Virus record (IMG/VR): IMGVR_UViG_2667527666_000007
DNA: 15,933 nt
Source of the DNA: a virus
Lineage: Duplodnaviria > Heunggongvirae > Uroviricota > Caudoviricetes
Reading direction: 5' to 3' (one strand)
A program made the position numbers. Shown here piece after piece: positions 9,001 through 12,000 of the stretch (positions are counted from its first letter, which is position 1; each line of letters starts with the position of its first letter).

Positions 9001-12000
9001 ACCATGCCGTGTTACCTGTACTTGGTACGCAATGAGAAGGGGAAGGAGGCCCGCGAGTGGCTTGATTCTCATCCGGTCGATCACATCCTCAACGAGCGCC
9101 CGAACGCGTGGCAAACCCCCTACCAGTTTAAGCGAATGATGATCCGCCACTGCCTGTTAAACGGTAATGCTTATGCGGTGATTCGGTGGGGGCGTGATGG
9201 TTTTCCGGTGGCTTTACATCCTTACCCGCCGCAGTCGGTGAACGTGGAGCAGACAGGTGAGCATAACTGGCGCTACTGCATCACTGACGCCTACACCGGA
9301 AACACCCGCAACTATTTACCGTGGGAGGTTCTCCACCTTCGTTACTCCACGGATGACGGTTTTATGGGGCGCTCACCTGTAACCATCTGCCGCGAATCGC
9401 TGGGGCTTGGGCTGGCCCAACAACGCCACGGCGCGAGCGTGATGCGTGATGGCATGATGGCGGCAGGGGTTATCACGTCAGGCGAATGGCTGGACGGCGT
9501 GAAGGGCAAACAGGCATTAGCCGCACTGGAACGCTACAAAGGGGCCAGAAACGCCGGAAAAACGCCCATCCTTGAAGGGGGTATGAGCTATCAGCAGCTG
9601 GGCATGAGTAATCAGGATGCTGAATGGCTGGCCTCCCGTCGCTTCACCATTGAAGACATCGCCCGAATGTTCAACGTCTCGCCGATTTTTTTGCAGGAAT
9701 ACAGCAACAGCACCTACAGCAATTTCAGCGAGGCAAGCCGCGCATTTCTCACCATGACGATGCGCCCGTGGCTGGCGAACTTTGAGCAGCAGATAAAAAA
9801 CGCCCTGCTGGTGGCCTCGCCTGTACCTGGTATCCGGTATCAGGTGGAGTTTGACAGCGCGGACCTGTTACGGGCCACACCTGGCGAACGCTTTGCCACC
9901 TATGAACGCGGCATCAAATCCGGCGTTATGTGCCCGAACGAAGCCCGCGAACGTGAAGGGCTGTCCCCGCGTGATGGTGGTGATGAGTTCAGCCAGGCAT
10001 GGAAACAGGAAGTAAAAATCAGCGAGGGAGAAAAACCGGAATGAACATAGGGCGACTGCGTGACAGGGTAACGATTCAGACCCTGAAACAGACCAGAGCC
10101 ATGACGGGCGAAATACTCGAAACGTGGGTGGACGGTCACACACTCTGGGCAAGCGTGAACATGATCAGCAGCAAGGAGGCCATTTCATCGGGTGCAGAAC
10201 TGGCGACTGGAACGGTAAGGGTATGGATACGCTACAGGAAGGACATCAACGCCACCAGCCGGATAAAGGTCAATACGGGGCCGCTGGCGGGGCGTGTACT
10301 GAATATCATCGGGCAGCCGCTGCCGGATGCCGCCAGGACACGCCTTGAAATTCTTTGTCGTGAGGGCGCGGAAAAATGACAGAAGAACTTATCACCCTGG
10401 AAGAAGTGAAACTCCATTGCCGCATCGATGGCGACGAGGAAGACCAGTTAATCAGCGGATACATTGCCGCATCGCTTGAGGCGTGCCAGATACACATAGG
10501 CAGGCGCTTTGATGACGGGCTGGAGTTCACGCCAGCCATAAAGATTGGCTGCATGATGTTTATCGCTCACCTGTATGAAAATCGCCAGATTGTCGCGGAT
10601 AACGCAAAAACACGCGTACCCATGACGATTGGTGCACTCTGGACGGCTTACCGTGATGTGGGGGTGTACTGATGCCGTGGCAACCATTAAGACGATGCAC
10701 AGAACCAGGCTGTAACAGGCGCGTGAAGTCCGGCAAGTGTGAGGAGCACAGGCGGGCGGCATGGCGTGCAGAGGATGCCAGACGAGGACACCGCCGCGCG
10801 CGTGGGTACTCCAGACAGTGGGACAAATACCGCGCCATGTATCTGAGTAAAAACCCGTTATGCGTGCGATGCCTTGAGAAGGGGATATATACGCCCGCCG
10901 TGGTGGTGGATCACATTATCCCCATCGATGGCGGTGATGATGTTCTCTTCTGGCCCGAATGGAACCATCAACCATTGTGTCAGGCGTGCCATAACCAGAA
11001 AACGAAATGGCTTGATCCGGCAACAAAAAGCAAGCGTGCCGCAGGTGGATTTCGTGAAGAGGAAGAACGGGCCGCTAACCGCAATAACTGGATGTATGAC
11101 GCTGATGAATGAGCGGGAACAATACCGCCTTATCCGTGGACTGATAAGGCAGCGTGACGCATGGAAGACACAGGAAACAGGGCATAAAGATAAAGCGTCA
11201 GGACGCGCAGAACGCATCACAGCGAAGCGATTAACCGACCGTGACCGCGAGGTTATGGAATGTTTCCGCAATCGCTGATGAGGCTGTATGACGGGGTGGG
11301 GGGCGTTTTCAGGACAAACCCGACCCCGCCGGGCACCGAACGCCTCCCCAAATTTTTATGCACGGGAATTTTTTGAAAAATAATCTGACGAAAAATAAGC
11401 ATGGCAAGACCACCGAAAGCCCCCGCCTACCTGGATGACATCGCCGTGAAGCAGTGGCGGGAAAAATCGCGGCAGCTTGCGGAACGGGGAGACCTGACCC
11501 CCGCCGACTGGAGCAATCTGGAACTGTATTGCGTCAATTACTCGATATACCGCAAAGCCGTCGCAGACCTTGCGGCGCGCGGGTTCAGCATTGTTAACAG
11601 TCAGGGCGGCGAGAGCAGAAACCCCGCATTAAGCGCAAAATCCGACGCTGAAAGAGTGATGATAAAAATGGCCTCCTTGCTCGGTTTTGACCCGGTAAGC
11701 CGCCGTAAAAATCCACCGGAAACAGAAGAAGAGGACGAGCTTGACCGCCTGGAATAAGTACGCAGAAGACGTAAAAACGGGCAAAATTCAGGCCTGTAAA
11801 CGGTTAAAACAGGCCGTTAAACGGTACTTTTCGGACCTTAAAAGCCCCCTTTACACGTTCGATCGTGAGGTTGTGGATCGGTTTATTGCCTTTTCCAGGG
11901 TGTGCCCGCACGTAAAAGGGCCGATGCGTGGCAGACCCATTGAGCTGGAGCCGTGGCAGCAGTTCGCCTTTGCGTGCATCCTCGGCTTTAAGGTTAAGGC

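What the first reader, a model, noticed from the sequence alone, without database searches (positions are those of the whole stretch)
11096..11400. Candidate cos packaging site between the HNH endonuclease and TerS genes
In HK97-type systems the HNH protein cooperates with terminase at a cos site located just upstream of terS. The 288-bp gap here contains a G-rich segment (ACGGGGTGGGGGGCG, CCCGACCCCGCCGGG) followed by an AT-rich stretch (AAATTTTTATGCACGGGAATTTTTTGAAAAATAA), which loosely resembles the GC-rich cosN then AT-rich cosB layout of lambda. The overlapping 60-aa ORF (11096-11278) may be real or may be packaging-site sequence.
Basis: inference. Interest (0 to 1): 0.5.

Follow-up and report, generated by a model that had tools for sequence, protein, structure and literature searches.

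The report
Cos site of a phage satellite
The short non-coding stretch just before the small-terminase gene of this capsid-forming phage satellite (cf-PICI) is its cos site, where its replicated DNA is recognised and cut for packaging; this is the expected kind of site, but the papers I could search had not mapped its position or anatomy.

Summary
The window is an EcCIEDL933-type capsid-forming PICI (cf-PICI). Three details need correcting.

1. The 60-aa ORF is a real gene, so the true gap is 11279-11400 (122 bp).
2. The gap holds a two-block module of fixed geometry. Block A (11291-11316) carries the window's only strong G block. Block B is 11334-11383. The spacer between them varies in sequence. 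74 of 80 relatives chosen by TerS protein alone carry both blocks.
3. Three independent assemblies of related elements start at the same nucleotide (within 1 nt), equivalent to window 11346|11347.

An invariant ACC lies exactly 10 nt upstream of that end. It matches the AC^CG nicking site of the homologous phage Gamma HNH. A linear unit-length contig is 10 nt shorter than expected.

Best model: HNH nicks the bottom strand at 11336|11337 and TerL nicks the top strand at 11346|11347. This leaves 10-nt cohesive ends (CGAACGCCTC), probably 3'. TerS probably binds GCACGG-N3-T6 at +14..+28.

The layout matches the mapped cos sites of Gamma/Wbeta, phiKO2 and HK97, and differs from lambda. It is a new member of a known kind. 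All end evidence comes from assemblies, not experiments.

The parts
10672..11112 (+). HNH endonuclease gene, the packaging-associated nickase
   Evidence: Pfam HNH E=1.2e-8; phrog_144 E=9e-45. It is 39% identical to HK97 gp74 (E=3e-19) and 35% identical to the phage Gamma HNH nickase (E=4e-14).
11096..11278 (+). Real 60-aa gene of unknown function (phrog_3173). It is not part of the cis site.
   Evidence: phrog_3173 E=2.9e-36 over the full length; PGAP CDS WP_000174068.1; codon-position variation pattern; no Pfam match.
11291..11316 (.). Block A: G block (GGGGTGGGGGG, 11293-11303, at -54..-44 from the cut) followed by GTTTTCAGGAC. It is an upstream cos element on the DNA end that is packaged last; a cosQ-like role is inferred.
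   Evidence: 69% invariant columns. Present 47-51 nt upstream of the block B core in 74 of 80 loci chosen by TerS alone. It is the only strong G block in the window. Equivalent G blocks, the only one or one of two in their genomes, lie at -56..-41 in HK97, phiKO2 and Gamma.
11317..11333 (.). Spacer of variable sequence and nearly fixed length.
   Evidence: 23% invariant columns. The A-to-B distance is 49-50 nt in 66 of 74 loci despite the sequence turnover.
11334..11383 (.). Block B: the conserved core of the cos site, spanning the cut.
   Evidence: 60% invariant columns against 12-25% at third codon positions of the flanking genes. The core is present in 76 of 80 loci, conserved as far as Pasteurellaceae, and occurs once in the window.
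11335..11338 (.). ACCG: the predicted HNH nick motif, with the bottom strand nicked opposite 11336|11337.
   Evidence: A, C, C are invariant at -12, -11, -10 in 145 of 145 unique modules. The homologous Gamma HNH nicks CG|GT, written AC^CG on the other strand (PMC3592412). AC|YG marks the upstream edge of the cohesive segment in HK97, phiKO2 and Gamma.
11337..11346 (.). Predicted 10-nt cohesive-end segment, CGAACGCCTC.
   Evidence: It lies between the ACCG nick position and the mapped left end. A cos-ordered linear contig is 10 nt shorter than the unit length predicted from 17 of 19 relatives. HK97 has 10-nt overhangs (PMC9410871) and Gamma has a 9-nt CGCCGCCCC at the aligned position.
11346..11347 (+). 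Top-strand cut. The left end of the packaged DNA starts at 11347 (or 11348 according to the Morganella record).
   Evidence: The ends of NZ_CP069874.1 and IMGVR_UViG_3300022664_000095 fall at the same nucleotide, and NZ_CP070523.1 is 1 nt further on. The position lies inside the 69 bp missing from the particle-derived record LR881103.
11360..11374 (.). GCACGG-N3-T6 (+14..+28): the putative TerS binding site, equivalent to cosB.
   Evidence: It is the most conserved part of block B. It lies at the same offset as the mapped HK97 TerS site at +15..+29, and the T-tract is at +23..+28 against +24..+30 in HK97. This assignment is inferred and not tested.
11401..11757 (+). terS, small terminase of the P27/Terminase_4 family
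   Evidence: Pfam PF05119 E=4e-24. The TerS proteins of Gamma and phiKO2 belong to the same family.
11741..13402 (+). terL, large terminase (ATPase plus nuclease)
   Evidence: Pfam TerL_ATPase and TerL_nuclease. It is 27% identical to HK97 gp2 (E=3e-47) and 33-36% identical to the TerL of phi105, Gamma and phiKO2.

Best explanation
Window 11291-11383 is the cos site of this capsid-forming PICI. It is the cis-acting signal at which the satellite's own TerS, TerL and HNH proteins recognise concatemeric satellite DNA and cut it into unit lengths of about 14.3 kb for its own small capsids.

Proposed mechanism:
1. TerS binds the conserved GCACGG-N3-T6/7 element downstream of the cut (+14..+28). This step is inferred.
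2. The HNH nickase cuts the bottom strand at the invariant ACCG motif, at 11336|11337. This is inferred from the specificity of a homologue and from the invariance of the motif.
3. The TerL nuclease cuts the top strand at 11346|11347. The position is supported by three assembly ends; the enzyme assignment is inferred.
4. This leaves 10-nt cohesive ends (CGAACGCCTC), probably 3'-protruding.
5. Packaging proceeds rightward into terS and terL.
6. The G-rich block A, 44-54 bp upstream on the end packaged last, is a further required element, possibly used at termination like lambda cosQ. This role is a conjecture.
For: Identity of the element: the integrase, primase, capsid, protease, portal, connector, HNH, TerS and TerL genes, 99% identity to an island between roxA and phoQ in E. 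coli IAI39, and the gene set described for EcCIEDL933.

Selection on non-coding DNA: blocks A and B are 69% and 60% invariant, against 12-25% at neighbouring third codon positions.

Generality without circular reasoning: of 80 loci from four orders picked by TerS protein only, 76 have the block B core and 74 have block A 47-51 nt upstream of it, while the distance from block B to the terS ATG varies from 34 to 239 nt.

Physical ends:
- The particle-derived record LR881103 (vB_KppS-Ant) lacks exactly 69 bp of the gap that integrated copies contain.
- The 15,995-bp record NZ_CP069874.1 breaks at ...CCCGCCCC|CTCAAATTTTT.
- The 15,518-bp cos-ordered metagenome contig L325, a different element (92% identical), starts at the same nucleotide.
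- Morganella NZ_CP070523.1 starts 1 nt further on, while an internal second copy of the site is read straight through.
- Of 155 loci holding the left-end pattern, only those two have it at offset 1, and the next nearest is at offset 64.

The 10-nt stagger: the ACC triplet is invariant at -12..-10 in 145 of 145 modules, the Gamma HNH homologue nicks AC^CG, and L325 is 10 nt shorter than the unit predicted from 17 of 19 relatives.

Comparison with mapped cos sites: a profile of 145 modules scanned against circularised HK97, phiKO2 and Gamma (263 kb) gives one significant hit, on the Gamma cos junction (E=0.0084), in register with Gamma's cohesive end. G blocks lie at -56..-41 and AC|YG marks the edge of the cohesive segment in all three phages. 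TerS of Gamma and phiKO2 belongs to the same Pfam family.

Literature: cf-PICI DNA forms concatemers through cohesive ends, and HNH stimulates cos cleavage in HK97.
Against: There is no direct end data for the E. coli element in the window. The cut is transferred by alignment from Klebsiella, Morganella and a metagenome element; there are no indels between ACC and AAATTTTT.

All ends come from deposited assemblies whose library and assembly methods I do not know. Three other unit-sized records (CP018459.1 and two from Arsenophonus) break elsewhere.

I could not read the right end of L325, so the 10-nt shortfall rests on its stated length and on relatives.

Overhang polarity is unresolved: Wbeta-type phages with the aligned cohesive sequence are reported to have 5' overhangs by PhageTerm, while HK97 has 3' overhangs.

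Sequence homology to the HK97 and phiKO2 cos sites was not detected by profile search. The ATG-anchored alignment to HK97 is only marginal (z=2.9 for the window, 1.1 for the Ant type).

The -9 position is A rather than G in 40% of modules, so the HNH motif is ACCR.

TerS binding and the role of block A are untested.
Confidence: 0.85

Rival explanations
1. The conserved blocks are a transcriptional or translational control element for terS-terL (promoter, terminator, attenuator or leader RNA), and the packaging site lies elsewhere.
For: The blocks lie directly upstream of terS inside an operon, and the AT-rich part with TTGAAA looks superficially like a promoter.
Against: The + strand has no promoter-like or terminator-like site, there is no Rfam match, and folding is no better than shuffled sequence (z=-0.6). 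The distance from the module to the ATG ranges from 34 to 239 nt while its internal geometry stays fixed. Assembly ends fall inside it.
Confidence: 0.04
2. The record ends are assembly or sequencing artefacts caused by the G and C homopolymers, or are arbitrary rotation points, and do not reflect real DNA termini.
For: The region has G and C runs whose length varies between copies. Three of the unit-sized 'plasmid' records break elsewhere. I do not know the library methods.
Against: Two different elements share the same nucleotide and a third is 1 nt away; the chance per record of landing within 1 nt of a given site is about 2e-4. The Morganella record reads straight through its second, internal copy of the same sequence. 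The records are ordered cos to cos. The position falls exactly 10 nt from an invariant nickase motif and in register with Gamma's mapped end.
Confidence: 0.05
3. The site is a pac site for headful packaging and not a cos site.
For: Small-terminase recognition sites next to terS also occur in pac phages.
Against: Unit-length records have precise, shared ends. TerL groups with phages whose records begin with terS-terL, including HK97 and Gamma, which have documented cohesive ends. An HNH partner is present. The literature reports cohesive-end concatemers of packaged cf-PICI DNA.
Confidence: 0.03
4. The cos site lies near attR (13991-14156), as in some classical PICIs, and the conserved module before terS has another role.
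For: That region is non-coding and lies just inside attR (about 14190-14264).
Against: Neither block recurs anywhere else in the window, even with 3 mismatches allowed. No assembly end maps there. Cos-ordered records run straight through the att junction.
Confidence: 0.01

Closest known systems
cos sites of Bacillus phages Gamma and Wbeta (Wbetavirus)
   Same: All three proteins belong to the same families: Terminase_4 TerS, TerL 34% identical and HNH 35% identical. The HNH gene is the last gene before cos and terS is the first gene after it. This is the only significant profile hit (E=0.0084), and it aligns the G block and ACCGC-CGCCCCCTCAA in register with the cohesive end. AC|CG lies at the upstream edge of the cohesive segment.
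   Different: The cohesive segment is 9 nt (CGCCGCCCC) against a predicted 10 nt. It is reported as a 5' overhang, whereas the satellite data favour 3'. It belongs to a complete Gram-positive phage and not to a tail-less satellite. There is no small ORF between HNH and cos. The sequence downstream of the cut differs.
cos site of Klebsiella phage phiKO2
   Same: TerS is Terminase_4 and TerL is 34% identical. GGGGGTAGGGGGG, the only such G block in its 51.6 kb, lies at -56..-44. AC|TG lies 10 nt before the end. A T5 run lies at +7..+11, exactly as in the satellites, within GATTTTTGCGCGTG.
   Different: The profile search does not detect it. Its HNH gene lies about 1.8 kb from the end and is not adjacent. 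It is a linear-plasmid prophage.
cos site of phage HK97
   Same: TerL and HNH are homologous. The G run lies at -51..-43. GAC|CGCCGCCAAA| gives a 10-nt segment bounded by ACCG. The T-tract at +24..+30 lies within the mapped TerS site at +15..+29. terS starts at +50, against +55 in the window. HNH stimulates cos cleavage.
   Different: TerS is not detectably related (no Terminase_4 match). The profile search finds no cos sequence homology, and the anchored alignment is marginal.
cos site of phage lambda (cosQ-cosN-cosB)
   Same: The order of functions is the same: an upstream element on the end packaged last, then a staggered cut, then a small-terminase site next to the terminase genes. The composition shifts from GC-rich to AT-rich.
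   Different: There is no IHF consensus and no repeated R elements. The TerS family differs, an HNH partner is needed, and the cohesive end is about 10 nt and probably 3', whereas lambda's ends are 5' and, from my own knowledge, 12 nt.
cos-type satellites that borrow a helper's cos site (SaPIbov5 with phi12/phiSLT; P4 with P2)
   Same: The satellite DNA is packaged from a cos site. In the SaPIbov5 case an HNH-dependent terminase is used (literature summarised).
   Different: Those satellites carry the helper's cos site and use the helper's terminase. Here the satellite has its own terminase, and no phage genome in the 50,697-record phage collection carries the module: the only hits are satellite-like records or an unverified 1.6-kb contig. 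That fits the exclusive packaging reported for cf-PICIs.

Membership tests
HNH-dependent cos site of HK97/P27-type terminases (Gamma, phiKO2, HK97) | Lies immediately upstream of terS, with an HNH endonuclease gene on the other side of the site | tested here: met
   HNH 10672-11112, module 11291-11383, terS 11401. One small gene lies between HNH and the site.
HNH-dependent cos site of HK97/P27-type terminases (Gamma, phiKO2, HK97) | TerL and HNH homologous to those of phages with mapped cos sites | tested here: met
   TerL against HK97 gp2, E=3e-47. HNH against gp74, E=3e-19, and against Gamma HNH, E=4e-14. TerL is 33-36% identical to phi105, Gamma and phiKO2.
HNH-dependent cos site of HK97/P27-type terminases (Gamma, phiKO2, HK97) | TerS of the same family as in phages with mapped sites | tested here: met
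   Terminase_4 in the window (E=4e-24), in Gamma (1.6e-12) and in phiKO2 (8.6e-11). This is not met for HK97 gp1.
HNH-dependent cos site of HK97/P27-type terminases (Gamma, phiKO2, HK97) | Packaged DNA has unique ends at the site | tested here: inconclusive
   The ends of three independent assemblies coincide within 1 nt, and a particle-derived record lacks 69 bp around that point. This is indirect: it comes from related elements, with no read-level or wet-lab data.
HNH-dependent cos site of HK97/P27-type terminases (Gamma, phiKO2, HK97) | Complementary single-stranded ends of about 9-10 nt, 3' in HK97 | tested here: inconclusive
   A length of 10 nt is supported by the ACC motif at -12..-10 and the 10-nt shortfall of contig L325. 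Polarity is not shown, and the literature for relatives conflicts.
HNH-dependent cos site of HK97/P27-type terminases (Gamma, phiKO2, HK97) | Sequence or layout similarity to a mapped cos site | tested here: met
   Met for Gamma by profile search (E=0.0084). For phiKO2 and HK97 only the layout matches, namely the G block at -56..-41, AC|YG at -10 and the T runs; the sequence search is negative.
HNH-dependent cos site of HK97/P27-type terminases (Gamma, phiKO2, HK97) | TerS binds a specific site next to the cut, and cleavage needs TerL plus HNH | not testable with these tools
   This needs EMSA and in vitro cleavage assays. The literature for cf-PICIs lists hnh-terS-terL among the packaging genes.
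Lambda-type cos (cosQ-cosN-cosB with IHF) | IHF site and repeated R elements in cosB, with a Nu1-type small terminase | tested here: not met
   WATCAR-N4-TTR is absent from 11251-11420 on both strands. The gap has no direct repeats apart from one chance-level 10-mer. TerS is Terminase_4.
Capsid-forming PICI (cf-PICI, EcCIEDL933 type) | PICI backbone (int, alpA-type regulator, primase/rep), with capsid, protease, portal, connectors and hnh-terS-terL, but no tail genes; about 15 kb | tested here: met
   The att repeats are 14,285 bp apart.

The most novel reading that the evidence does not exclude
HNH-associated terminases may share a common cos grammar that does not seem to have been stated. 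The genome's rarest G block sits 41-56 bp upstream of the cut. An AC^YG motif, the nicking site of the HNH partner, sits exactly at the upstream edge of the 9-10-nt cohesive segment. That would mean the HNH protein makes one of the two cos nicks in a sequence-specific way and TerL makes the other. The pattern holds in HK97, phiKO2, Gamma and all 145 satellite modules examined. This would settle the open question raised for HK97, whether gp74 cuts one strand itself or only stimulates TerL.
Probability: 0.4. Interest if true: 0.6.

Novelty: new member of a known kind. Interest (0 to 1): 0.45.

Why it matters
cf-PICIs package only their own DNA into their own capsids and then borrow tails from different phages. 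That makes them strong vehicles for gene transfer across species. Knowing the minimal cis signal (about 95 bp, 11291-11383) and the probable cut makes several things directly testable and usable. Any plasmid could be tagged for packaging into cf-PICI capsids. Packaging-dead copies such as the Shigella deletion could be recognised. Satellite DNA in virome data could be identified by its ends. The fixed 10-nt distance between an HNH-type nick motif and the mapped end also gives a concrete, falsifiable division of labour between HNH and TerL at this class of cos site.

Tried and rejected
1. Sequence homology to HK97 cos: a profile of 12 gaps against circular HK97 gave no hit at cos. A profile of 145 modules also failed for HK97 and phiKO2. 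Local alignment was not significant and the ATG-anchored global alignment was marginal (z=2.9, 3.1 and 1.1). I therefore claim only a positional match for those two phages.
2. My first guess for the cut, AAA|TTTTT at 11352|11353 from the HK97 alignment, was 5-6 nt off once assembly ends were found.
3. Using locus edges from IMG/VR pattern searches as contig ends was rejected, because the loci are arbitrary chunks. Only L325, whose start coincides with an independently known end, was used.
4. I tried to read the right end of contig L325, but the search returned the same locus.
5. Promoter and terminator scan, Rfam search, RNA folding, IHF consensus and direct repeats in the gap were all negative.
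7. BLASTP of TerS against HK97 gp1 and Gamma TerS was not significant; for Gamma, family membership shows only at the Pfam level. There is no solved structure for this TerS family by sequence.
8. The held cf-PICI papers do not map a cos sequence.
9. BiPBO1 was uninformative, because its record starts at the terS ATG.
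Full report
WHAT THE WINDOW IS. The window encodes a tyrosine integrase (1-1230), a D5-type primase (3366-5198), an HK97-fold capsid protein (7014-8219), a prohead protease, a portal, a head-closure protein and a connector. These are followed by an HNH endonuclease (10672-11112), a P27/Terminase_4 small terminase (11401-11757) and a large terminase (11741-13402). There are no tail genes. The region is 99% identical to an island between roxA and phoQ in E. coli IAI39, and 515 of 5,426 complete E. coli genomes carry it, always on the chromosome. Imperfect att repeats lie 14,285 bp apart. This matches the gene set and size described for EcCIEDL933, the prototype capsid-forming PICI. 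Those papers state that hnh-terS-terL carry out packaging and that packaged cf-PICI DNA forms concatemers through cohesive ends. None of the held papers gives a mapped cos sequence.

CHECKING THE OBSERVATION. The three quoted strings sit at 11291-11305, 11319-11333 and 11350-11383. The GC content drops from 0.69 to 0.255 across the gap, and the G block is the only one of its strength in the window. The 60-aa ORF 11096-11278 is a real gene. It matches phrog_3173 over its full length (E=2.9e-36), PGAP annotates it, and across relatives its third codon positions vary most (invariant fractions 0.32/0.33/0.15). It has no Pfam match. The non-coding gap is therefore 11279-11400, 122 bp.

ANATOMY AND CONSERVATION. 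In an alignment of 11 divergent copies, block A (11291-11316) is 69% invariant and block B (11334-11383) is 60% invariant. Third codon positions of HNH and terS are 12-25% invariant, the spacer 11317-11333 is 23%, and the stretch next to the ribosome-binding site is 8%. To avoid circular reasoning I retrieved 80 loci from one genome per species using only TerS protein patterns. They cover Enterobacterales, Aeromonas, Orbales and Pasteurellales, with TerS identity down to 65%. Of these, 76 have the block B core; three of the other four have less than 120 nt of upstream sequence available, and the fourth carries a deletion. In 74 loci block A lies 47-51 nt upstream of the block B core, and in 66 of them the distance is 49-50 nt, even though the intervening sequence differs. 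The distance from block B to the terS ATG ranges from 34 to 239 nt. The two blocks therefore form one module of fixed geometry that is not tied to the terS start. Each block occurs once in the window.

RIVAL READINGS. The + strand has no promoter-like or terminator-like site. There is no Rfam match. Folding is no better than shuffled sequence (z=-0.6). There is no IHF consensus and no R-type repeat.

PHYSICAL ENDS. Five records of related elements bear on the termini.
(a) LR881103 ('phage' vB_KppS-Ant, from an induced prophage) is a cf-PICI in cos order. Its record ends at ...GGTTTTCAGGAC and starts at ACGAAAAGG. Three contiguous copies of the same element hold 69 bp between those two points. 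The linear record has therefore lost sequence on both sides of a point inside block B.
(b) PQ569648 (phage P12620-1, 106.5 kb) ends with a 15.9-kb cf-PICI segment in cos order. Its boundaries flank the gap.
(c) NZ_CP069874.1, a 15,995-bp K. pneumoniae 'plasmid', is a complete cf-PICI. Its record breaks at ...GGCACCACCCGCCCC|CTCAAATTTTTACGCACGG, and its joined ends reproduce the integrated sequence exactly.
(d) IMGVR_UViG_3300022664_000095 (15,518 bp) is a different element, 92% identical over terS-terL. It is in cos order and starts at the same nucleotide, |CTCAAATTTTT.
(e) Morganella NZ_CP070523.1 starts at |TCAAATTTTT, 1 nt further on. The same sequence 15,247 nt later, inside the record, is read straight through.
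The chance that a random breakpoint falls within 1 nt of a given site is about 2e-4 per record. Among 155 loci containing the left-end pattern, only (c) and (d) have it at offset 1. Three other unit-sized records break elsewhere, as expected for circular or concatemeric templates. There are no indels between ACC and AAATTTTT, so the shared end transfers to window 11346|11347, or 11347|11348 by the Morganella record.

THE SECOND NICK. In 17 of 19 relatives, a portal-end marker lies 1302 nt before the left end. This predicts a unit of 15,528 bp for contig (d), which is 15,518 bp, 10 nt short. I could not read that contig's right end. Separately, in all 145 unique modules of this subtype, A, C, C are invariant at -12, -11, -10, and -9 is G in 60% and A in 40%. 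The HNH of phage Gamma is 35% identical to the window's HNH (E=4e-14). It is a strand-specific nickase that cuts CG|GT, written AC^CG on the other strand (PMC3592412). A bottom-strand nick at AC|CG (11336|11337) and a top-strand cut at 11346|11347 would give 10-nt 3' overhangs of sequence CGAACGCCTC. That fits three observations: left ends that start at CTCAAA, a linear contig 10 nt short, and HK97's 10-nt 3' overhangs. However, Wbeta-type phages are reported to have 5' overhangs by PhageTerm, so I treat the polarity as probable and not shown.

COMPARISON WITH MAPPED COS SITES. TerL and HNH are homologous to HK97 gp2 and gp74, but TerS is not detectably related to gp1. Profile searches do not find the HK97 cos site. 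Gamma and phiKO2 share all three protein families with the window. A profile of 145 modules scanned against the three circularised genomes gave a single significant hit (E=0.0084), on the Gamma cos junction. That hit aligns the G block and ACCGC-CGCCCCCTCAA, and it places the satellites' first base directly after Gamma's cohesive sequence CGCCGCCCC. By position, all systems agree.
- G blocks, which are the only one or one of two of that strength in each genome, lie at -56..-43 (HK97), -56..-44 (phiKO2), -53..-41 (Gamma) and -55..-42 (window).
- AC|YG bounds a 9-10-nt segment in each: GAC|CGCCGCCAAA|G, GAC|TGCCGCTTCA|G, TAC|CGCCGCCCC|C and CAC|CGAACGCCTC|C.
- phiKO2 and the satellites both have a T5 run at +7..+11.
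- The satellites' GCACGG-N3-T6/7 at +14..+28 lies where HK97's TerS site was mapped (+15..+29), with T-tracts at +23..+28 and +24..+30 respectively.

VERDICT. The gap contains the satellite's cos site (confidence about 0.85). The cut position within 2 nt has a confidence of about 0.7. A 10-nt stagger bounded by the ACCG motif is about 0.55, and 3' polarity about 0.5. The roles of TerS at +14..+28 and of block A are inferences. No phage genome in the 50,697-record collection carries the module: the hits are satellite-like records or an unverified 1.6-kb contig. That fits the exclusive self-packaging reported for cf-PICIs. The site is a new member of a known kind, namely HNH-dependent cos sites of the P27/HK97 type. 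The cross-system regularity (G block, and an HNH nick motif at the edge of the cohesive end) is the part most worth following up.

Noticed in passing
L218 (Shigella flexneri SFBU1023, CP182556.1), equivalent to window 11324-11427: This copy has a 97-bp deletion between two direct CCCCGCC repeats. It removes block B, the cut site and the first seven codons of terS, so the satellite is probably packaging-dead.
   Followed up: partly
L301 (Morganella morganii p46903_1, NZ_CP070523.1, 24,703 bp): This record is deposited as a circular plasmid. It starts at the cos left end, crosses an att junction into int and the whole element, passes a second intact cos site 15,247 nt later, and continues into chromosomal genes (fis to aroQ). 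It could be an assembly that merges the excised and integrated forms, or a tandem integrated dimer cut in situ at the first cos site.
   Followed up: partly
L002 (LR881103.1), L003/L005 (PQ569648.1), L298 (NZ_CP069874.1), L299 (CP018459.1), and NZ_CP038627.1 / NZ_CP123539.1: Several public records filed as phages or plasmids are cf-PICIs. 'Escherichia phage vB_KppS-Ant' is one. The last 15.9 kb of the 106.5-kb 'Klebsiella phage P12620-1' is a satellite joined to a phage genome. Four 16-17-kb 'non-mobilizable plasmids' of Klebsiella and Arsenophonus encode this terS, and two of them that I read in full (L298, L299) are complete satellites.
   Followed up: partly
L300 (pK15-KPC, NZ_MK433207.1, about 123.6-135 kb): An IncFIA/IncU conjugative KPC plasmid record contains a cf-PICI next to fis, prmA, panF and accBC. 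This is the same chromosomal neighbourhood as in the Morganella record. Either a chromosomal segment carrying the satellite moved onto the plasmid, or the record is a mis-assembly.
   Followed up: no
L228-L273 and L292-L297 (Xenorhabdus and Photorhabdus genomes): Single Xenorhabdus genomes carry many copies of the terS-plus-module unit, for example at least five loci each in X. kozodoii and X. innexi. Several draft contigs break right at the module, presumably because it is repeated.
   Followed up: no
L282-L289 (Pasteurellaceae bacterium Macca; Lonepinella): In these elements the module lies 216-239 nt upstream of terS, compared with about 50 nt elsewhere. Something has been inserted between cos and terS while the module itself stayed intact.
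   Followed up: no
window 11293-11303 and the equivalent position in E. coli relatives: The second G run of block A varies in length between otherwise near-identical E. coli copies (5 to 8 G). This could be slippage or sequencing error, and it suggests the exact run length is tolerated.
   Followed up: no
window 11096-11278: The small basic protein encoded between HNH and cos (phrog_3173) keeps its C-terminal CFRNR motif across many Enterobacterales satellites. It always ends 12-20 nt before block A. It appears to be absent from Pasteurella Pmp8 (no such ORF annotated) and from Xenorhabdus copies (the conserved 3' end is missing). Its function is unknown, and it might be a packaging accessory factor.
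   Followed up: partly
L105 (HK97 39677-39690), L372 (phiKO2 51546-51558), L370 (Gamma 37201-37213): In each of these phages the strongest G block in the genome, the only one or one of two, lies 41-56 bp before the mapped genome end. I found no mention of this element in the HK97 packaging papers I searched.
   Followed up: partly
PMC9410871, text: The paper gives the HK97 overhang as 10-nt 3' in the Figure 1 legend but as 12-nt 3' in the Discussion, where it also gives lambda as 10-nt 5'. The two numbers appear to have been swapped in the Discussion.
   Followed up: no
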